Source: an uncultured Alphaproteobacteria bacterium (GTDB lineage Bacteria > Pseudomonadota > Alphaproteobacteria > Paracaedibacterales > CAITNM01). From it: a DNA stretch of 64,000 nt. A program made the position numbers and the translations under genes. The stretch lies in contig CAITNM010000026.1 in the NCBI GenBank assembly GCA_903893805.1, positions 69,664 through 133,663 on the forward strand. The letters run 5' to 3'. Positions 1-6,049 of this stretch are shown here, piece by piece; positions within the stretch are counted from its first letter, which is position 1, and every line of letters starts with the position of its first letter. The notes beneath the pieces were generated by a model. That model did not search any database and was not told the DNA's origin. It saw nothing but the letters and a program-made list of their open reading frames with translations.

Positions 1-1
1 T

Positions 2-409
2 GCTCCTGTGGCTCCTGAAGCTGGATTCTCTGCTTTACTAGCTGGTATGACAAGTTCGTGCCCAATTCAAAGGCATCCTAAAGTGGCTGTTGGTGATGCA
101 GCTTCTCAAGCTTTGATAACATTGGCAGAAGCTACAAGATTCCCTTATGCGATCAATGGTATTAGCTTGACTGGGGACTATGCAACTACGTTTGCTGCAA
201 CCTCTGACATTGTGGATCCGACTGCTGATTCTGCAAGTGCTGGCTTCACAGTTGATGAGCATAGTGTACTTACGATTTTGCATAGTCGTGGTCACACTGA
301 ATTGCCTGCTATTTCGTCTTACCTAGTACCTGGAGGTACTTCTAACATCGTAGTAACAATGGATGCGTCTACGGTTAAGCTTCCAAAACTATCACCTCCA
401 CTAGACTAA
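2..409 (+). CDS. 3' end of a window-truncated ORF; Ala/Thr/Ser-rich putative exported protein, family unclear
   Basis: The frame is open from the window edge to TAA at 407-409; track ORF 8..409 is only the part from the GTG onward. Composition resembles the downstream paralog array. Followed by a CCCCCA/TGGGGG hairpin plus T-run (442-499). Confidence 0.4.
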   Translation, partial: APVAPEAGFSALLAGMTSSCPIQRHPKVAVGDAASQALITLAEATRFPYAINGISLTGDYATTFAATSDIVDPTADSASAGFTVDEHSVLTILHSRGHTELPAISSYLVPGGTSNIVVTMDASTVKLPKLSPPLD

Positions 410-586
410 ACTTATTAAGGAAAAACGATTGAGTTCACCAGCCCCCATAATTTAGGCCATCACGCACTGCGTAGTGTGCCTGGGTTCTGGGGGATTTTCA
501 TCTTCTTAATGACTTCATATCAGCACTTTTTCATTATTCAAAATAAATTATATAATATTTACCAAAAATTTATTATACATTTATCA

Positions 587-623
587 TTTATTAACCTTAT
601 TCCCTCAATATAATAATTGTTAC
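587..623 (+). promoter_or_regulatory. Conserved bipartite upstream module TTTATTAAC-N15-TAATAATTGTTAC, copy 1 (36 nt before the ATG at 660)
   Basis: The same two boxes recur at the same 15-nt spacing at 2331..2367 and 3386..3422, ahead of the paralogs. TATAAT at 609-614 overlaps box 2. Likely promoter/operator. Confidence 0.55.
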
Positions 624-659
624 AAGGATTAACATTTTTACTTACGAAGGAATATAATA

Positions 660-1478
660 ATGAAAACTATTCAAAAAATCACTTTAGGTTTACTTACAGT
701 TGGAGCTTTCACAGCGTCTGGTTTTGCTGCGACAATAATTGATCTTGATGTTGCTACAGGTAGCGCAGAACATAGCGGTCTAATCACTGCAAGCTTAGCT
801 CACAAAACTGGTGCTGGTACTCTTGTTCTAAGTAACGCAGCAAACGCTATTACTGTGTTGGAAATACAAGAAGGTCAAGTTGATATTGCTGCAACTGGTA
901 ACTTTGGTGGAACAGCTTCCTTCACAACAAACGCTGGAAACAAGCTAAATATGGTAGCAGCTGGCGTGTCTGTGCCTGCGCTTACTATGACTATGGCTGG
1001 TTACCTTGACTGTAATGGTTATGCAACCAACTTAGCTGGTGTTCCTGCTGGTGCTGGGGTACTTTCTATTGATGGTGCTGGTCCACTAACAATGACTGTT
1101 GATGCATCTGCAAGTGATACACCAGTTGTTCTTATGGCTAATGCTGTAGTACGCACAGGTGTAAGCTCATCATCTAAAATGCCAAGCTCTGTTACCACAG
1201 TATCAGCTGGTGCTGAGTTAAAAATTATAGATAACACTGTAAGTTGTGCTCCTGGTGTTACAACAGTTCAATCCGGTGGTATTGTTGATGTTGCTGCGCT
1301 TAAATCAGTTCCTGCATATGCAGCACCTACTGCGCTTGCAGCTACGGACTTCTTCAATCGTTGGGATAGTGCAGCATTAGCAGCAGAAGGTTCCTTGAAG
1401 TTTGAATCTGGATCAATACTAAGACTAGGTGATGGTTCAAGCTGGGCACGTAACATAACTGTTGGTACGGCTCTATAA
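660..1478 (+). CDS. Exported PATR-like repeat protein, paralog 1 (272 aa), no translocator domain
   Basis: Signal peptide MKTIQKITLGLLTVGAFTASGFA|A. LAHKTGAGTLVLSNAANAITVLEIQEGQVDI resembles the autotransporter passenger-associated repeat. G/A/T/S/V-rich body. C-terminal GSLKFESGSILRLGDGSSWARNITVG is shared with 2406..3104 and 3462..4208. Confidence 0.8.
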   Translation: MKTIQKITLGLLTVGAFTASGFAATIIDLDVATGSAEHSGLITASLAHKTGAGTLVLSNAANAITVLEIQEGQVDIAATGNFGGTASFTTNAGNKLNMVAAGVSVPALTMTMAGYLDCNGYATNLAGVPAGAGVLSIDGAGPLTMTVDASASDTPVVLMANAVVRTGVSSSSKMPSSVTTVSAGAELKIIDNTVSCAPGVTTVQSGGIVDVAALKSVPAYAAPTALAATDFFNRWDSAALAAEGSLKFESGSILRLGDGSSWARNITVGTAL

Positions 1479-1513
1479 TTTCTACATCACTAAATTAATA
1501 TCATGACACCTAT

Positions 1514-1546
1514 CCCCGGCCAAACACTCTTGGCTGGGGATTTTTA
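1514..1546 (+). terminator. Rho-independent terminator of paralog 1
   Basis: CCCCGGCCA (1514-1522) pairs with TGGCTGGGG (1531-1539) with one G-U pair, followed by ATTTTTAA. Confidence 0.7.
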
Positions 1547-1563
1547 ATGCGGATTCCATAAAA

Positions 1564-1601
1564 CTGGATCCCCACGCCCTAAAGGGCTCTGGATGACGAC
1601 C
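1564..1601 (+). repeat. Dispersed ~40-bp repeat, copy A (CTGGATCCCCACGCCCT-AA-AGGGCTCTGGATGACGA)
   Basis: The 17-nt core AGGGCTCTGGATGACGA is identical in copies at 1564, 2012 and 4369. The 5' half is identical to copy B except for 1 nt. Confidence 0.85.
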
Positions 1602-1705
1602 TACTCTCGTCTTGAGCTGTGGCCGAAGGGACATGGCAATCCAGTGGGTAATATCAATATTGTACATGTGCGACTGGATGGCTAGGCTGATTTCATAGGT
1701 TCACC

Positions 1706-2011
1706 ATGACACGCAATGATCATATGAAACAGCCTGCAGTGTATATTATGGCTAATACACAGAATGGCACGATTTATACAGGAGTAACTTCTGATCTTGT
1801 AAAACGAGCGTATGAGCACAGAAATGGCTTAATTAGTGGCTTCACCAAAGATCATGGCTGCAAGATGCTGGTGTTTTTTGAAATTCATGAAACGATGGAG
1901 TCAGCTATAGTGCGAGAGAAACAAATCAAAAATTACTCGAGAAAAAAGAAGCTTAAGCTTATTGAGAAAATGAATTTAGCATGGTTAGATTTATTTAACG
2001 GAATTGTTTGA
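1706..2011 (+). CDS. GIY-YIG nuclease family protein (UPF0213/YhbQ-like), 101 aa
   Basis: AVYIMANTQNGTIYTGVTSDLVKRAYEHRNG is the GIY-(N10)-YTG motif followed by R..EH. Small stand-alone domain. ATG at 1724 is an alternative start. Confidence 0.8.
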   Translation: MTRNDHMKQPAVYIMANTQNGTIYTGVTSDLVKRAYEHRNGLISGFTKDHGCKMLVFFEIHETMESAIVREKQIKNYSRKKKLKLIEKMNLAWLDLFNGIV

Positions 2012-2050
2012 CTTGATCCCCACGCCCTTTCAGGGCTCTGGATGACGACC
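2012..2050 (+). repeat. Dispersed ~40-bp repeat, copy B, starting at the base after the GIY-YIG stop codon
   Basis: CTTGATCCCCACGCCCTTTCAGGGCTCTGGATGACGACC, in direct orientation relative to copy A. Confidence 0.85.
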
Positions 2051-2205
2051 CTTATTCCCCACTAATTTCCCTTTGGCTTGGGCCTTGGGTCCAGTTTTAT
2101 AGCATCTTCTTGCCAAAAAAATATCCATGGACCAAAACGCTTTCCACCCTTCGTTTCAAGTAAATAAAAATGTATACAACTTTATTATTATTTCTATATT
2201 TACTT

Positions 2206-2243
2206 TTTATTAATAGACGTGGTTTATAACTAATAATTGTTAC
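2206..2243 (+). promoter_or_regulatory. Orphan copy of the bipartite module (TTTATTAAT-N16-TAATAATTGTTAC) with no ORF behind it
   Basis: Box 2 is identical to copies 1 and 2. No SD or ATG follows at the expected +36-39 nt. The functional copy lies about 125 nt downstream. Confidence 0.45.
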
Positions 2244-2330
2244 TATCGTTAATAATTAATTTTTAATAGGGCACACAAAACAACTAATAATAATTCAATT
2301 ATTTATATTTATATTGCTCAGTATTAACTC

Positions 2331-2367
2331 TTTATTAACTATATTAACACAAAATAATAATTGTTAC
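2331..2367 (+). promoter_or_regulatory. Conserved bipartite upstream module, copy 2 (38 nt before the ATG at 2406)
   Basis: TTTATTAAC (2331-2339), N15, then TAATAATTGTTAC (2355-2367). Confidence 0.55.
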
Positions 2368-2405
2368 TAACTTTAAACATTTTTATTTGAAAAGGAATTT
2401 ATATT

Positions 2406-3104
2406 ATGAAAACTATTCAAAAAATTACATTAGCTTTGTTGACAATGGTTAGCGTTTCTTCACTTTCAGCTTCTCAGCTTGAAATTGCAAACGCTGGAGC
2501 GGCTACAGTTGATGCAATAATTACTGGTGATGTCAAAAAAACTGGCGCTGGTGCTTTGACAATTTCTGCTGCTATTGCTGGTGACCTTGAAGTTAACGCT
2601 GGTTCAGTGGTTATAGCCGTAAACGCAGTTGCTTCAAGCCTAGATATGACTGGTGGCGACCTATCATGTGGTGCTTTTAACGTGCCAGCTACTTTGATGA
2701 GCTCACCTGCTACTCTAACTTCTACTGCAGCAGGTAACTTAGGAGTGTTAACTGGTACGCAAAAGATGACTTTAGCAGGTGCTTTTGATAGAACATTAGG
2801 CGCGAATGCTTCAGCAACACCAATGGATATTTCTGGTTATGCAGTAATTGGGGCGGCTGGTTCTGTTCTACCAACAGCTGCTACTGCAGTAAAATCTGGT
2901 GGTAAACTAAAATTTGCTGGTGCAGCGCTTAGTTCAATTGCTGGTGCTACAACTGTTGAATCAGGTGGAGAAGTTGAAGTTGCAGCTGCTGTTGATACCG
3001 TTCCATTAATGGTAGATGCATCTGGATCTCTAGCTTTTGCTTATGGTTCTAAGATCACATTAGGAGCTGCCAGTGTATGGTCAATTCCAGTTACTGCAAG
3101 CTAA
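2406..3104 (+). CDS. Exported PATR-like repeat protein, paralog 2 (232 aa)
   Basis: Its first 9 codons are nearly identical to paralog 1 (MKTIQKITL). Cleavage site LSA|SQ. ITGDVKKTGAGALTISAAIAGDLEVNAGSVVI closely matches the PATR consensus. C-terminal motif GSLAFAYGSKITLGAASVW. Confidence 0.8.
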   Translation: MKTIQKITLALLTMVSVSSLSASQLEIANAGAATVDAIITGDVKKTGAGALTISAAIAGDLEVNAGSVVIAVNAVASSLDMTGGDLSCGAFNVPATLMSSPATLTSTAAGNLGVLTGTQKMTLAGAFDRTLGANASATPMDISGYAVIGAAGSVLPTAATAVKSGGKLKFAGAALSSIAGATTVESGGEVEVAAAVDTVPLMVDASGSLAFAYGSKITLGAASVWSIPVTAS

Positions 3105-3137
3105 TCTTGCTGTAAAATAAGCAATAGAATAAAAGAA

Positions 3138-3166
3138 GGAGTGAGAATTTTTCTCACTCCTTTTCT
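3138..3166 (+). terminator. Rho-independent terminator of paralog 2
   Basis: GGAGTGAGA (3138-3146) pairs perfectly with TCTCACTCC (3152-3160) around a 5-nt loop, followed by TTTTCT. Confidence 0.8.
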
Positions 3167-3385
3167 GAATTTCTACACTTTTACCAGACACTTCTTAAGA
3201 GCCTGATATTGCACCTAAACTTTTAGAATGCAGATTTTTCTGGTGCTAAATTGCCTGTAAAATTATTCGTCCCTTTTGTTGTAACACCTTCCAAAATAAT
3301 TACTGTCATAATTAAAGCATATTAAAATATACATAAAATATATATCTGATTTTATTATTGATAATTTATTATTCTGAATTATCCC

Positions 3386-3422
3386 TTTATTAACTCCATT
3401 ATATTAAAGTAGTAATTGTTAT
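3386..3422 (+). promoter_or_regulatory. Conserved bipartite upstream module, copy 3 (39 nt before the ATG at 3462)
   Basis: TTTATTAAC (3386-3394), N15, then TAGTAATTGTTAT (3410-3422). Confidence 0.5.
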
Positions 3423-3461
3423 AAATTTATACAAAACTATTCTTAAAAATGGAGTATAGAA

Positions 3462-4208
3462 ATGAAAATTATTCAAAAAATACCATTGTGTTTATTCACA
3501 TTGGCAGCAATATTGACTTGGAGCACAGCATCAGCAACGGACTTAGAAATTGACTTTCACGACGGGACGTCAATAGACACAGTTATTACTGGAAAAGTGA
3601 ACTTAGTTGGCTTTGCAGCTTCTGATGAGCTTACCTTGAGCGGTTCCATAACAGACGACGTTAAAATCAGTAGAGGTAACATAAAAACCACCTCTTCAAC
3701 GTCTTTTGGCGCTGACATTATTATGAATGGCGGTAGCCTAGAAACAACAACGGCTATGAGCCTTCCCACACTAGTGATAGATGCAGATAGCACACTTACT
3801 GCCGATGCTGCCGCTACTTTAACTGGCATGGGCGGGGTTAGTAAATTAACTGTTGCTGGTGTTGGGGCAATAACTCCTGATGATTTGAGCGCGGCAACTA
3901 ATGCAGTTGATGTCAGCGGCATTGTACATGTAGGTGCAACTGGTTCTTTGTTGCCTTCAGGTGCAGTGACTGTAAAGAATGCTGGTTTGGTAAAACTTAT
4001 GGGCGTTGTGGCAGACTGTATTCCTGGCGCTATGAAAGTGGAAAGTGGCGGAGCTGTTGAAGTAGATGCGTCACTGGCAGTTCCTGCAGTGGGTGCTGCT
4101 GCTTCTGGTGACCTTTTTGGTACCTTAAGGTTTGACACTGGGTCAAGATTAAAGCTGGGCAATGGTGCAGACTGGGGTCGTGCTGTAACAATTGGTTCAT
4201 ATAGCTAA
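3462..4208 (+). CDS. Exported PATR-like repeat protein, paralog 3 (248 aa)
   Basis: MKIIQKIPL head and ASA|TD cleavage site. Diverged repeat segment ITGKVNLVGFAASDELTLSGSI. C-terminal GTLRFDTGSRLKLGNGADWGRAVTIG is homologous to paralog 1. Confidence 0.75.
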   Translation: MKIIQKIPLCLFTLAAILTWSTASATDLEIDFHDGTSIDTVITGKVNLVGFAASDELTLSGSITDDVKISRGNIKTTSSTSFGADIIMNGGSLETTTAMSLPTLVIDADSTLTADAAATLTGMGGVSKLTVAGVGAITPDDLSAATNAVDVSGIVHVGATGSLLPSGAVTVKNAGLVKLMGVVADCIPGAMKVESGGAVEVDASLAVPAVGAAASGDLFGTLRFDTGSRLKLGNGADWGRAVTIGSYS

Positions 4209-4236
4209 TTTCTTCGCTACATTTTACTATTATTAT

Positions 4237-4272
4237 CCCTGGTTAGTTCGTTCTGGCTGGGGATTTTTATTT
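4237..4272 (+). terminator. Probable rho-independent terminator of paralog 3
   Basis: CCCTGGTTAG pairs with CTGGCTGGGG using several G-U pairs. Related in sequence to the 1514 terminator. Followed by ATTTTTATTTTT. Confidence 0.5.
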
Positions 4273-4368
4273 TTCTGTAATAAGAAATTACCCACTGGAT
4301 AACCACGTCCACTCAATGCCTCGCTATGACGGTTCTTGGTATTTCCAAAAGCAATACGATAATAAGCA

Positions 4369-4408
4369 CTGGATCCCGACGCTCTCTGACGAGGGCTCTG
4401 GATGACGA
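4369..4408 (+). repeat. Dispersed ~40-bp repeat, copy C (solo)
   Basis: CTGGATCCCGACGCTCTCTGACGAGGGCTCTGGATGACGA. The 17-nt core is identical and the 5' half is diverged. Confidence 0.8.
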
Positions 4409-4633
4409 AACTCTGTTTTCACGTTTTCACGCAAATGACAAAGATAACATAGGGTCCAGTTCTGTAACTTCCGCTCAAGCTGCGGATAATTATAGAACAC
4501 AATCGAAACAACATGTGTTCTTAACGCGTTCAATACATCAAAGCTCTATTATAATGTGGTTAATTGATACTTCCCTCTTGTTTTTTAGCATGCATTTGAA
4601 ATAATGAACGGAGTAGTCTTTTAAAAAATCATC

Positions 4634-6049
4634 ATGCGCAGGCAACGTAAAGCTAAAATCATTGCTACTTTAGGTCCATCCTCATCAGACTATGAACAAA
4701 TTAAAGCATTATTTGTAGCAGGCGCCGATGTTTTCCGTCTGAACTTTTCCCATGGTGAACACGAAAGCCACGCGGAAAATTATAAAATTATTCGAAGAAT
4801 CGAACAAGAATACAAGCGACCAATTGGAGTTTTGCTTGATTTACAGGGGCCAAAGCTGCGTATTGGAACTTTTTCAAATACAAAAATTTCCTTAAAAGCT
4901 GGGCAAACTTTCCTTCTTGATTTAGATAGCACTCCTGGTAACAACCACCGTGTGTGCATGCCGCATCCTGAAATTTTTCAAGCCCTTAAAGAAAACATTG
5001 ATTTGCTTTTAGATGACGGCAAGGTTCGGCTCAAAATTACAAAGTGTGGTCATGATTTTGCAGAAACTATTGTTGTGTCAGGCACTGAGCTTTCTAATCG
5101 CAAGGGGGTGAATGTTCCTGATGTGGTGTTGCCAATAGATGCGCTAACTAAAAAAGATATTATCGATTTAAAATTTGGGCTGGAATTGGGCGTTGATTGG
5201 GTTGCGTTGTCGTTTGTGCAGCAACCAAATGACTTGATCATGGCGCGTGAGCTTGTAGGCAAAAAAGCAAAGCTTATTGCTAAAATTGAAAAGCCTATGG
5301 CCATTCAATATTTACAAGAGATTGTTACTTTGTCAGATGCTGTTATGGTTGCGCGGGGAGATTTAGGCGTAGAAATACCTGCAGAAGATGTTCCAGTCAT
5401 ACAGCGTCAAATTATTCGCACCTGTCGTGGGTTAGGAAAGCCCGTTATTGTTGCTACGCAGATGCTAGATTCAATGGTGCACGTGCCAACACCTACTCGA
5501 GCAGAGGCGTCAGATGTTGCAACGGCTATTTATGATGGGGTCGATGCTGTAATGCTTTCAGCTGAATCAGCGTCAGGTGATTACCCTGTAGAAGCTGTTT
5601 CTATGATGGACCGCATTATTCAACGCACCGAAAGAGATCCTTTTTACCAAAAAATGCTTGATGACAGCTACACATTGCCTCCGCCTACTGTTAGTGATGC
5701 AGTAACTACCGCAGCGCGTTCTGCAGTTGGTATTATTGGTAGTGCATTAATGGTTACTTTTACAGAAACAGGGCGCACAGCTTTTCATGCTGCCCGCGAA
5801 CGTCCCCATTGCAACATATTAGCGCTCACGCCAGTTTTAAAAACATCAAGGCAACTTACGTTGGTGTGGGGCGCACATCCTGCTTTGACCGATGATATTT
5901 TTTCAATTGGGCAAATGGTTGAAACTGCATGTACTTTCGCCAAACAAGAAAATTTTGCACAAATAGATGATTACGTTGTGATAACCGCTGGGGTTCCTTT
6001 TGGACAATCAGGCGGCACAAATATGATTCGAATAGCAAAGGTTAGTTAG
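4634..6049 (+). CDS. pyk: Pyruvate kinase
   Basis: KIIATLGPSS, FRLNFSHG, MVARGDLGVEIP and ATQMLDSM motifs; 471 aa. Confidence 0.95.
   Translation: MRRQRKAKIIATLGPSSSDYEQIKALFVAGADVFRLNFSHGEHESHAENYKIIRRIEQEYKRPIGVLLDLQGPKLRIGTFSNTKISLKAGQTFLLDLDSTPGNNHRVCMPHPEIFQALKENIDLLLDDGKVRLKITKCGHDFAETIVVSGTELSNRKGVNVPDVVLPIDALTKKDIIDLKFGLELGVDWVALSFVQQPNDLIMARELVGKKAKLIAKIEKPMAIQYLQEIVTLSDAVMVARGDLGVEIPAEDVPVIQRQIIRTCRGLGKPVIVATQMLDSMVHVPTPTRAEASDVATAIYDGVDAVMLSAESASGDYPVEAVSMMDRIIQRTERDPFYQKMLDDSYTLPPPTVSDAVTTAARSAVGIIGSALMVTFTETGRTAFHAARERPHCNILALTPVLKTSRQLTLVWGAHPALTDDIFSIGQMVETACTFAKQENFAQIDDYVVITAGVPFGQSGGTNMIRIAKVS

What the first reader, a model, noticed from the sequence alone, without database searches (positions are those of the whole stretch)
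1..4280. Tandem array of monocistronic, exported PATR-like mini-proteins that lack any translocator barrel
Three complete paralogs (272, 232 and 248 aa), plus a truncated Ala/Thr/Ser-rich ORF at the window edge, sit head-to-tail. Each has its own conserved upstream module and its own hairpin terminator. All three start with nearly the same 9 codons (MKTIQKITL / MKIIQKIPL) and carry an AxA-type signal-peptidase site. Next comes a segment (ITGDVKKTGAGALTISAAIAGDLEVNAGSVVI; LAHKTGAGTLVLSNAANAITVLEIQEGQVDI) that reads like the passenger-associated transport repeat of autotransporters (consensus roughly KtGaGtLtLsg..N....G.t.v.aGtL). The rest is a G/A/T/S/V-rich body and a shared C-terminal motif (GSLxFxxGSxxxLGxxxxW....T). 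At 232-272 aa there is no room for a beta-barrel domain. They therefore look like passenger-only beta-solenoid proteins whose export or anchoring route is unexplained. Conserved heads and tails with diverged middles suggest a diversifying surface or secreted antigen family in an intracellular bacterium.
Basis: partly seen in the sequence, partly recalled or inferred. Interest (0 to 1): 0.8.

Follow-up and report, generated by a model that had tools for sequence, protein, structure and literature searches.

The report
Barrel-less mini beta-helix exported protein family
Three neighbouring genes in a Finniella-like protist endosymbiont encode small exported beta-helix proteins related to autotransporter passenger domains but lacking any membrane barrel; they belong to an undescribed family that diversifies by swapping sequence blocks, and how they leave the periplasm is unknown.

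Summary
The three ORFs (660-1478, 2406-3104, 3462-4208, + strand) are real paralogs, 30-36% identical. Each has a conserved upstream module, a near-identical signal peptide, a shared C-terminal motif and its own terminator.

Two details of the finding are wrong. The truncated ORF at 2-409 is the tail of an unrelated 537-aa protein. A GIY-YIG ORF flanked by REP-like repeats separates copies 1 and 2.

AlphaFold2 gives a confident all-beta solenoid (pLDDT 85). The weak PDB matches are right-handed beta-helices, with autotransporter passengers on top. Pfam PATR stays below threshold on the window proteins. However, the family profile reaches multi-unit members with the same signal peptide and C-terminal cap that do pass the PATR threshold. 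It also reaches giant PATR proteins, including one true autotransporter.

No core-family member tested has a barrel. The same ~230-aa module also sits at the C-terminus of NHL-propeller proteins. Named genomes holding the family are Ca. Finniella/Odyssella MAGs (Paracaedibacteraceae).

Between close genomes the promoter and signal peptide are 93-100% identical, while body blocks fall to ~50%. Synonymous divergence rises 4- to 40-fold in those blocks, which points to block replacement by recombination. Positive selection was not shown.

Verdict: a new barrel-less variant of PATR beta-helix proteins. Final location and export route remain open.

The parts
2..409 (+). C-terminal 133 codons (plus stop) of a separate 537-aa exported protein (P0328). 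It is not a member of the mini-helix family.
   Evidence: Identical to the C-terminus of P0328 in alignment A4. No family HMM hit; hhalign probability 0.3. AF2 of P0328 gives an N-terminal beta-helix resembling the Ssp and IcsA passengers, followed by a ~290-aa alpha/beta domain.
442..493 (+). Terminator-like hairpin that ends the upstream 537-aa gene
   Evidence: -31.5 kcal/mol, z -4.4, followed by a T-run
587..659 (+). Upstream module of copy 1: TTTATTAAC box (587-595), AATAATTGTTAC (612-623), TTAACA, and Shine-Dalgarno GAAGGAA (646-652)
   Evidence: Repeat families D2-D4; motif specificity; alignment of 19 upstream regions from 6 genomes; 93-98% identical to the L001 ortholog
660..1478 (+). 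Copy 1, 272 aa: signal peptide, PATR-like segment (residues 45-75), beta-helix body, C-terminal cap (residues 244-272)
   Evidence: identical to P0002; AF2 pLDDT 85; mosaic divergence
1512..1547 (+). Intrinsic terminator of copy 1
   Evidence: 12-bp stem plus T-run; -21.7 kcal/mol, z -4.8
1563..2050 (+). Insert between copies 1 and 2: GIY-YIG ORF (1706-2011) bracketed by 39-nt REP-like direct repeats (1563-1601 and 2011-2050)
   Evidence: Pfam PF01541 E 4.4e-15; repeats; the same repeat occurs in related loci, without the GIY-YIG gene in L001
2228..2405 (+). Upstream region of copy 2, with a duplicated module: a partial copy at 2228-2271 and the full module at 2331-2405, including AATAATTGTTAC at 2356-2367
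   Evidence: (D4); the duplication is also present in L001
2406..3104 (+). Copy 2, 232 aa; best PATR-like segment (residues 45-70)
   Evidence: PATR 23.8 bits, below the cut-off of 27; P0028
3136..3162 (+). Palindromic terminator hairpin after copy 2
   Evidence: -20.9 kcal/mol, z -4.7
3386..3461 (+). Upstream module of copy 3 (TTTATTAAC at 3386-3394; variant AGTAATTGTTAT at 3411-3422; Shine-Dalgarno GGAG)
   Evidence: 82-90% identical to L010
3462..4208 (+). Copy 3, 248 aa; no PATR hit but a full-length family member
   Evidence: (identical to P0001)
4235..4270 (+). Intrinsic terminator of copy 3, homologous to the terminator of copy 1
   Evidence: (D19); -16.3 kcal/mol, z -5.2
4368..4410 (+). 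Third copy of the REP-like repeat
   Evidence: (D6, D9)

Best explanation
The three genes encode the minimal, one-unit members of an undescribed protein family. Named genomes that hold it are Finniella/Odyssella-like Paracaedibacteraceae.

Family architecture: [conserved Sec signal peptide MKTIQKLTLGLL...] - [~170-aa PATR-type beta-helix unit] x n - [~55-aa C-terminal cap ...G(S/A)xLxLGxGxxWARxITVGxxx-COOH].

Proposed mechanism:
- Each gene is transcribed on its own, from a conserved promoter-like module to its own terminator.
- The product is exported by Sec, the signal peptide is cleaved, and the mature ~21-25 kDa chain folds into a right-handed beta-solenoid.
- That solenoid is homologous to the stalk of PATR-type autotransporter passengers. 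There is no linker or barrel, so transport cannot be autonomous type V secretion.
- The invariant C-terminal cap is proposed to act like an autochaperone: a folding nucleus or helix cap, and possibly a docking or sorting element. It is kept at the extreme C-terminus whether the module stands alone, is repeated, or carries an NHL beta-propeller head.
- The sides of the helix are the variable, functional face. They are renewed by replacing sequence blocks through recombination between alleles or paralogs. The conserved 5' end (promoter plus signal peptide) and 3' end (cap plus terminator) would serve as homology arms.

Most likely role: envelope-exposed or released host-interaction (adhesin-like) proteins of a protist endosymbiont.

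Shown: paralogy, fold, homology to PATR proteins, absence of a barrel, modular architectures, mosaic divergence.

Inferred: signal-peptide cleavage, the role of the cap, surface or secreted location, function.
For: - Paralogy and conserved ends: (column identity 0.76 for the head, 0.53 for the tail, 0.33-0.45 for the middle).
- Fold: AF2 pLDDT 85, pTM 0.84, 22 short strands and no helices. The best Foldseek PDB hits are TibA (probability 0.84), tapirin, Ag43, IcsA, tailspikes and pectate lyases.
- Homology to PATR proteins: the profile search finds 368 representatives. They include P0087 (28 PATR repeats, E 8e-209) and P0095 (PATR x14 plus PF03797 barrel, E 3e-54).
- Bridging members: P0119, P0155 and P0136 have the family's signal peptide and cap and pass the PATR cut-off with 34-39 bits against 27. 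They repeat profile positions ~22-195 and end with positions 197-254.
- NHL-propeller proteins carry the module at the extreme C-terminus.
- No barrel, lipobox or known sorting motif in any core member examined.
- Real genes: dN/dS 0.2-0.5; about 100 full-length representatives; 3-5 copies in each of 5 related genomes.
- Own promoter-like module and terminator for each gene.
- Mosaic evolution: nucleotide identity is 93-100% in the module and signal peptide but ~50% in body blocks. Different blocks have different nearest relatives. dS is 0.03-0.23 in conserved blocks against 0.93-1.69 in replaced blocks. Housekeeping neighbours have dS 0.11-0.16 and dN/dS 0.09.
- Taxonomy: all genome hits are Ca. 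Finniella, Ca. Odyssella or Alphaproteobacteria MAGs. All characterised Holosporales are obligately host-associated (PMC11909080).
Against: - No experimental or computational result places the proteins outside the periplasm.
- No outer-membrane translocation route is known for a barrel-less, non-lipidated beta-helix with a Sec signal, other than type II secretion or dedicated channels.
- No conserved partner gene lies next to the genes.
- Pfam PATR is below its cut-off on all three window proteins and on all 27 close homologs; only 4 of 27 reach E <= 0.01.
- Foldseek matches are weak: best E 0.024, TM 0.32.
- Per-repeat scores against giant PATR proteins are modest, 12-36 bits. These proteins are rich in G/A/T/S, so part of the signal could be compositional.
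- dN/dS never exceeds 1, so diversifying selection is not demonstrated.
- No expression data.
Confidence: 0.6

Rival explanations
1. Periplasm-resident beta-helix proteins. They are exported by Sec but never cross the outer membrane. They would act as envelope structural, binding or chaperone-like components, as other periplasmic parallel beta-helix proteins such as AlgG and NosD do. Their variability would reflect relaxed constraint plus recombination.
For: - A Sec-type signal peptide is the only targeting feature found.
- No barrel, lipobox, TPS domain, or PEP-CTERM/T9SS-type end.
- No adjacent secretion genes.
- Periplasmic beta-helices NosD and AlgG appear among the weak fold matches.
- dN/dS < 1 everywhere.
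Against: - The relatives found with recognisable anchors end in an autotransporter barrel (verified for P0095) or in what look, by sequence inspection, like PEP-CTERM or T9SS-type ends; these anchors are typical of surface proteins.
- Multi-copy arrays with block-wise allele replacement and a 10- to 20-fold higher dN than neighbouring genes are typical of exposed proteins.
- NHL-head fusions look like display architectures.
Confidence: 0.25
2. Subunits of an extracellular or envelope polymer. The conserved head and tail would be stacking interfaces that let solenoid monomers join end to end into fibres. This would be analogous to curli CsgA or bactofilin-type beta-solenoid polymers, with export through a dedicated channel encoded elsewhere.
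For: - The conserved termini flank a variable lateral surface.
- The proteins are small Sec-dependent beta-solenoids.
- Multi-unit members look like covalent concatenations of the same unit.
Against: - Most of the conserved 'head' is the signal peptide itself (residues 1-16). It would be cleaved off, and the mature N-terminus is not conserved.
- No curli or Fap-like genes are nearby.
- CsgA appears only as a negligible fold match, and that match was to the neighbouring 537-aa protein (E 1.7).
- No amyloid-type imperfect repeats.
Confidence: 0.08
3. Decayed remnants of classical autotransporters (passenger-only pseudogene fragments), or chance ORFs in G/A/T/S-rich sequence.
For: - Fragmented, pseudogenised type Va autotransporters are reported in Brucella (PMC8111173; title and abstract only).
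- A distant relative, P0095, is a full autotransporter.
Against: - About 100 representative sequences share the same complete architecture, from the start codon to the C-terminal cap.
- There is no barrel remnant downstream. A terminator follows each stop within 30-35 nt.
- The barrel of P0095 gives no hit among 1298 ORFs of the window and 13 related loci. This was a single-sequence query, so sensitivity is low.
- dN/dS is 0.2-0.5.
- The promoter-like module and Shine-Dalgarno sequence are conserved across genomes.
- The AF2 model is confident.
Confidence: 0.03

Closest known systems
PATR-type classical (type Va) autotransporter passengers (IcsA, TibA, Ag43, Brucella BmaC; Pfam PF12951 plus PF03797)
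   Same: - Sec signal peptide.
- Right-handed beta-helix built from PATR-like repeats.
- The family profile hits such proteins, for example P0095 with 14 PATR repeats and a barrel.
- The best structural matches are TibA, Ag43 and IcsA passengers.
   Different: - No alpha-helical linker and no 12-stranded barrel, so no self-translocation.
- 232-272 aa instead of more than 800 aa.
- One PATR-like unit that falls below Pfam's cut-off.
- A family-specific ~55-aa C-terminal cap ends the protein.
- A family-specific, highly conserved signal peptide, with no match to Pfam's extended signal peptide (ESPR) model.
Barrel-less PATR / 'autotransporter-associated beta strand repeat' (TIGR02601) proteins that use other anchors (PEP-CTERM, T9SS C-terminal domain)
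   Same: A PATR beta-helix without an autotransporter barrel. Such proteins appear among the distant hits of the family profile (C-termini that look like PEP-CTERM or T9SS-type ends, judged by sequence inspection).
   Different: - Those proteins end in a recognisable sorting signal (a transmembrane helix plus basic tail, or a T9SS domain) and are usually giant.
- The proteins here end in a soluble beta-strand cap with no hydrophobic anchor.
- They sit in an alphaproteobacterial endosymbiont lineage.
- TIGR02601 scores 16-18 bits against a cut-off of 19.85.
Variable surface-protein gene families with constant ends (Mycoplasma Vsp/Vlp with a conserved 5' region and signal peptide; Anaplasma Msp2/P44 with conserved flanks and a variable core; chlamydial Pmp) - analogy from general knowledge
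   Same: Multi-copy family. The 5' region, signal peptide and C-terminal end are nearly invariant, while the central part is replaced block by block.
   Different: - No sequence or fold relationship.
- No expression-site or silent-cassette organisation; every copy has its own promoter-like module and terminator.
- No invertase or simple-sequence-repeat phase-variation switch was seen.
- Within-strain switching was not shown.
Curli CsgA and other small secreted beta-solenoids (type VIII secretion)
   Same: A small Sec-dependent beta-solenoid protein that has no barrel of its own.
   Different: No CsgA-type repeats, no csgG/E/F-like neighbours, and no meaningful fold or sequence match.

Membership tests
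Pfam PF12951 PATR (passenger-associated transport repeat) | At least one repeat scoring above the gathering cut-off of 27 bits | tested here: not met
   Copy 1 scores 17.1 bits, copy 2 scores 23.8 bits and copy 3 has no hit. Only 4 of 27 close homologs reach E <= 0.01 and none reaches the cut-off. Multi-unit members of the same family (P0119, P0155, P0136) do pass with 34-39 bits. The relationship therefore holds at family level only.
NCBIfam TIGR02601 autotransporter-associated beta strand repeat | Score of at least 19.85 bits | tested here: not met
   17.6 bits (copy 1), 16.3 bits (copy 2), none for copy 3
Classical autotransporter (type Va secretion) | C-terminal 12-stranded beta-barrel translocator (Pfam PF03797) covalently linked to the passenger | tested here: not met
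   - No PF03797 hit at E <= 10.
- The proteins end 25-30 residues after the last helix rung.
- A terminator follows each stop codon.
- No barrel was found in any core-family representative tested.
Classical autotransporter (type Va secretion) | N-terminal Sec signal peptide | tested here: met
   The n-region is MK(T/I)IQK, followed by an uncharged stretch of 19-21 residues with mean hydropathy about 1.8-2.3 over its first 13 residues, and small residues at -3/-1 (GFA, LSA, ASA). This rests on heuristics only because SignalP was not available.
Classical autotransporter (type Va secretion) | Right-handed parallel beta-helix passenger | tested here: met
   The AF2 model has pLDDT 85 and contains only short strands. 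The top PDB matches are beta-helix passengers, but they are weak: E 0.024, TM 0.32. Handedness was not measured directly.
Two-partner secretion substrate (TpsA, type Vb) | N-terminal TPS domain (Pfam PF05860) and an adjacent TpsB gene | tested here: not met
   No such Pfam hit. The neighbours are pyk, miaA, mutY, an ABC ATPase, TonB and a TonB-dependent receptor.
Exosortase / PEP-CTERM or T9SS-sorted PATR proteins | C-terminal sorting domain (a PEP motif plus transmembrane helix plus basic tail, or a T9SS C-terminal domain) | tested here: not met
   The C-termini are ...WARNITVGTAL...WSIPVTAS and ...WGRAVTIGSYS, with no hydrophobic helix. No NCBIfam or Pfam sorting-domain hit.
Bacterial lipoprotein | Lipobox [LVI][ASTVI][GAS]C at the end of the signal peptide | tested here: not met
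   By sequence inspection, copies 1 and 2 have no Cys in the signal peptide. Copy 3 has IPLC at residues 7-10, which does not fit the lipobox and lies too close to the N-terminus.
New family defined here (mini PATR-helix with C-terminal cap) | Signal peptide MK(T/I)IQK(I/L)(T/P)L, plus a full-length match to the 255-position family profile, plus the C-terminal motif G(S/A)xLxLGxxxxWxxx(I/V)T(V/I) at the extreme C-terminus | tested here: met
   All three window proteins match the family HMM end to end, with E 1e-93, 9e-64 and 4e-93. All three carry both motifs.

The most novel reading that the evidence does not exclude
The ~55-aa C-terminal cap (...GSxLKLGxGxxWARxITVGxAL-COOH) is a new kind of sorting or docking signal. 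It would let Sec-exported PATR beta-helices reach and stay on the cell surface, alone or carrying NHL-propeller heads, without a covalently attached barrel. The route would be a trans-acting outer-membrane partner (a 'split' autotransporter-like or otherwise unknown pathway) in Holosporales endosymbionts. The gene family would then act as a recombining, modular surface-display system facing the protist host.
Probability: 0.2. Interest if true: 0.8.

Novelty: new variant of a known kind. Interest (0 to 1): 0.5.

Why it matters
Autotransporter-type beta-helices are thought to need either a covalently linked barrel or a recognised alternative anchor to reach the surface. This family is widespread in metagenomes: 368 representatives at 50% identity match the profile, and about 100 have the full architecture. 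It keeps the passenger-like helix but ends in a short soluble cap.

If the proteins are surface-exposed or secreted, a still-unknown outer-membrane route or docking partner must exist. If they stay in the periplasm, PATR helices have a role outside type V secretion.

The family is also a candidate host-interaction factor for Paracaedibacteraceae. According to a recent review, the mechanisms of their interaction with hosts are still poorly understood (PMC11909080). Finally, it gives a clean natural example of block-wise allele replacement between constant promoter/signal-peptide and cap/terminator ends.

Tried and rejected
- **Fourth paralog at 2-409: rejected.** No HMM, hhalign or tblastn similarity. 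It is the tail of P0328.
- **Further copies or pseudogene fragments in the 64-kb window:** none by hmmsearch or by tblastn at E <= 10.
- **Sequence search of the PDB with the family profile:** only chance antibody hits, E > 0.6.
- **Defence-system models (PADLOC):** no hits for the three proteins.
- **Rfam and tRNA scans of 1-4700 (Rfam) and 1-6000 (tRNA):** only sub-threshold hits on the terminator hairpins. There is no riboswitch or sRNA explanation for the conserved leader.
- **Exact-sequence contig look-up of copy 1:** failed.
- **Adjacent partner genes:** the window neighbours are housekeeping genes. The contexts of the NHL-fused members show no conserved partner.
- **Barrel search:** phmmer with the barrel of P0095 against 1298 ORFs of the window plus 13 loci found nothing. 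Sensitivity is low for a single-sequence query.
- **Sigma-70 promoter scan:** the best hit (629-658) ends 1 nt before the ATG and cannot serve this ORF. A TTAAC(T/C)-N15-AATAAT arrangement inside the conserved module is my own reading of alignment A3 and is unverified.
- **Positive selection:** whole-gene and block-wise dN/dS all stay below 1, so I do not claim it.
- **Antisense ORF 3557-4162 (201 aa):** judged a by-product of the GCN/GGN-rich sense frame, because the sense frame carries the family HMM match.
- **Literature:** no paper in the library links autotransporters or PATR to Paracaedibacter, Odyssella or Finniella. The Holospora genomics paper only used PF12951 as a search model.

Full report
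**1. What is in the sequence**

The + strand of window 1-4280 holds three complete ORFs: 660-1478 (272 aa), 2406-3104 (232 aa) and 3462-4208 (248 aa).
- They align end to end at 30-36% identity with 46 invariant columns. These are concentrated in the first nine residues (MKTIQKITL / MKIIQKIPL) and in the last ~30 (G-L-F--GS---LG----W----T).
- Each ORF is preceded by a conserved AT-rich module: a TTTATTAAC box, AATAATAATTGTTAC, TTAACA and an AAGGA-type ribosome-binding site.
- The 12-mer AATAATTGTTAC occurs exactly three times in the 64-kb window, each time upstream of copy 1 or copy 2. The only other match within one mismatch is unrelated; 0.78 matches are expected by chance. Copy 3 carries a variant.
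- Each ORF is followed within ~30 nt by a strong hairpin plus T-run: -21.7, -20.9 and -16.3 kcal/mol, z -4.7 to -5.2.

**2. Corrections to the observation**

The truncated ORF at the window edge (2-409) is not a paralog.
- It gives no hit to a family HMM, hhalign probability is 0.3, and tblastn finds nothing.
- It is identical to the C-terminus of a separate 537-aa protein, P0328.

Copies 1 and 2 are not adjacent.
- They are separated by 927 nt that hold a 101-aa GIY-YIG ORF (1706-2011; Pfam E 4e-15).
- That ORF is bracketed by 39-nt direct repeats.

A strict AxA signal-peptidase site exists only in copy 3. The other two copies have GFA and LSA.

**3. Where it comes from**

- A word-indexed search of 5.8 billion proteins with the three-protein profile found only 27 clusters. 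All are 158-307 aa, unnamed and without Pfam domains.
- A scan of GTDB representative genomes found ten loci. All are in MAGs labelled Candidatus Finniella inopinata, Ca. Finniella sp., Ca. Odyssella sp. or Alphaproteobacteria bacterium. These belong to Paracaedibacteraceae (Holosporales), whose characterised members are obligate symbionts of protists (PMC11909080).
- The closest MAG (L001, L010) shares 97-98% amino-acid identity in pyk and miaA.
- Each related genome carries 3-5 copies at two loci. One locus lies downstream of the 537/545-aa protein. The other lies upstream of pyk-miaA-mutY, often with Fic-domain genes interleaved.
- In the window and its closest relative the two loci appear to be joined.
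- The window's neighbours are housekeeping genes: pyk, miaA, mutY, an ABC ATPase, TonB and a TonB-dependent receptor.

**4. Fold**

- AlphaFold2 with the 27-sequence alignment gives a confident model of copy 1: pLDDT 85, pTM 0.84. It consists of 22 short strands and no helices, with low confidence only in the signal peptide.
- Foldseek against the PDB returns only weak matches (best E 0.024, TM 0.32), and most of them are parallel beta-helices. The TibA passenger comes first, followed by tapirin, Ag43, IcsA, phage tailspikes and pectate lyases.
- A sequence search of the PDB found nothing.

**5. Relation to PATR and autotransporters**

On the window proteins, Pfam PATR scores 17.1 and 23.8 bits against a cut-off of 27, with no hit on copy 3. 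TIGR02601 is also below its cut-off. Only 4 of 27 close homologs reach E <= 0.01. By the database's own criterion, membership is therefore not met.

An exhaustive HMMER search of 1.84 billion representatives with the family profile found 368 proteins. They sort into a coherent series:
- **(a) One-unit proteins.** About 100 proteins of 216-307 aa carry the family's signal peptide and C-terminal motif.
- **(b) Multi-unit proteins.** These are 340-781 aa with the same signal peptide and the same C-terminal cap. Profile positions ~22-195 are repeated two to six times. Three of them (P0119, P0155, P0136) pass Pfam's PATR cut-off with 34-39 bits.
- **(c) NHL-propeller fusions.** These are 367-936 aa, and the ~230-aa family module including its cap forms the extreme C-terminus.
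- **(d) Distant giants of 1000-4500 aa.** They carry up to 28 bona fide PATR repeats. One is a verified classical autotransporter (P0095: PATR x14 plus PF03797, E 3e-54). Others end, by sequence inspection, in what look like PEP-CTERM or T9SS-type signals.

The window proteins are thus the minimal (n = 1) members of a PATR-derived beta-helix family. In this family the usual anchor is replaced by a short soluble cap.

No core member tested has a barrel. The barrel of P0095 finds nothing among 1298 ORFs of the window and 13 related loci, though this was a low-sensitivity test. The 'decayed autotransporter' reading is therefore rejected.

**6. Evolution**

- Against the closest genome, the family orthologs are 67-69% identical, whereas neighbouring housekeeping genes are 95-98% identical. 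dN is ~0.22 against 0.01-0.02, dS is ~0.46 against 0.11-0.16, and dN/dS is ~0.5 against 0.09.
- The divergence is mosaic. The upstream module and signal peptide are 93-100% identical in nucleotides, then identity drops abruptly to ~50% in blocks. The blocks are 1050-1400 in copy 1, 3526-3700 and 3826-3900 in copy 3, and the whole body of copy 2.
- Different blocks have different nearest relatives. Copy 1 residues 26-130 are 81-87% identical to P0009-P0011, but residues 131-243 are only 43% identical. Copy 3 shows the converse pattern.
- Synonymous divergence jumps in the same blocks: 0.18-0.23 to 0.93 in copy 1, 0.17 to 1.69 in copy 3, and 0.03 to 1.24 in copy 2.
- At the other locus, dS reaches 0.6-0.76 where uvrD next door has 0.06-0.12.

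This is the signature of block replacement by recombination with diverged alleles or paralogs. It is not the signature of in-place positive selection, and dN/dS never exceeds 1. The conserved 5' and 3' ends are plausible homology arms, but that is an inference.

**7. How it most likely works**

Shown:
- independent promoter-like module and terminator for each gene;
- a Sec-type N-terminus;
- a beta-solenoid fold;
- homology to PATR helices;
- no barrel, lipobox, TPS domain or known C-terminal sorting domain;
- a cap that is kept at the extreme C-terminus in every architecture.

Inferred:
- The proteins are exported by Sec, cleaved near residues 22-25, and fold as soluble beta-helices.
- The C-terminal cap acts as a folding nucleus or helix cap, by analogy with the conserved autochaperone end of autotransporter passengers. 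It may also serve as a docking or sorting element.
- The variable helix sides are the working surface.
- Their homology to surface proteins, multi-copy arrays, rapid block-wise turnover and NHL-head fusions make an exposed or released host-interaction role the most likely (confidence ~0.6 for the overall picture).

Rivals:
- Periplasmic residence is the main rival (~0.25). No outer-membrane route can be named and no partner gene is linked.
- A fibre-subunit reading is weak (~0.08). The conserved 'head' is mostly the cleavable signal peptide.

**8. Comparison with what is known, and novelty**

- The closest known things are PATR-type type Va passengers and barrel-less PATR proteins with PEP-CTERM or T9SS anchors. 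The family works like their stalk but fails the defining membership tests: the barrel, the PATR cut-off and the sorting domains.
- The pattern of constant ends and a variable core recalls mycoplasma Vsp/Vlp or Anaplasma Msp2 by analogy only.
- I found no description of this family in Pfam, NCBIfam or the searchable literature.
- I rate it a new variant of a known kind, of moderate interest. It would be of higher interest if the cap proves to be a new sorting signal.

**9. Seen in passing**

- The neighbouring 537-aa protein is itself a barrel-less, passenger-like protein. Its AF2 model (pLDDT 82) has an N-terminal beta-helix matching the Ssp autotransporter (Foldseek E 1.3e-6, probability 1.0) and the IcsA C-terminal passenger fragment. 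A ~290-aa alpha/beta domain follows, and that domain also occurs as a stand-alone exported protein.
- A 39-nt REP-like repeat is dispersed across these genomes, often beside the family genes.

Noticed in passing
window 2-409 (full-length homolog at L007:8142-9779; protein P0328): The edge ORF is the tail of a 537-545-aa lineage-specific exported protein. It lies directly upstream of a mini-helix gene in the related genomes examined (L001, L003, L006-L008). Its AF2 model (pLDDT 82) has an N-terminal beta-helix that matches the Ssp autotransporter passenger (8e7f, E 1.3e-6) and the IcsA C-terminal passenger fragment. Instead of a linker and barrel it continues into a ~290-aa alpha/beta domain, which also occurs as stand-alone 305-325-aa proteins. 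This is a second barrel-less, autotransporter-like family.
   Followed up: partly
window 1563-1601, 2011-2050, 4368-4410; also L001:9654 and 10392, L002:9736, L005, L011-L013: A 39-nt REP-like repeat, ACTGGATCCCCACGCCCT(N)AGGGCTCTGGATGACGACC, contains a small GCCCT/AGGGC hairpin. It is dispersed across the related genomes and is often next to the beta-helix genes. Two copies bracket the GIY-YIG ORF in the window.
   Followed up: partly
window 1706-2011 (+): A 101-aa stand-alone GIY-YIG domain ORF (Pfam E 4.4e-15) is inserted between copies 1 and 2. It is absent from the same position in the closest relative, L001, which suggests a mobile or recently acquired small nuclease gene.
   Followed up: partly
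L002:11691-13100 (-), L004:1372-2562 (-), L005:8372-9559 (-), L009:113-1303 and 3707-5116 (-), L013:6697-7800 (-): In relatives, Fic/DOC-domain genes are interleaved with or adjacent to the mini-helix arrays, and one lies near an NHL-fused member. They are possible toxin or effector genes sharing the variable locus.
   Followed up: no
window 2228-2271: A second, partial copy of the upstream module (AATAATTGTTAC...TTAATAGGG) lies 124 nt before the real module of copy 2 and has no ORF behind it. It is conserved in L001. It is either a remnant of a lost copy or a second regulatory site.
   Followed up: no
window 1-64000 versus L002, L003, L005, L007: Gene order differs between genomes exactly at the mini-helix loci. 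In relatives, one locus sits between the 545-aa gene and TPR/uvrD, and the other sits before pyk. In the window the two are joined, and TPR/uvrD lie about 35 kb away. The family loci may coincide with rearrangement breakpoints.
   Followed up: no
window 3557-4162 (-): A 201-aa antisense ORF lies inside copy 3. It is conserved in relatives only because it overlaps the sense gene, and is probably not a gene.
   Followed up: partly
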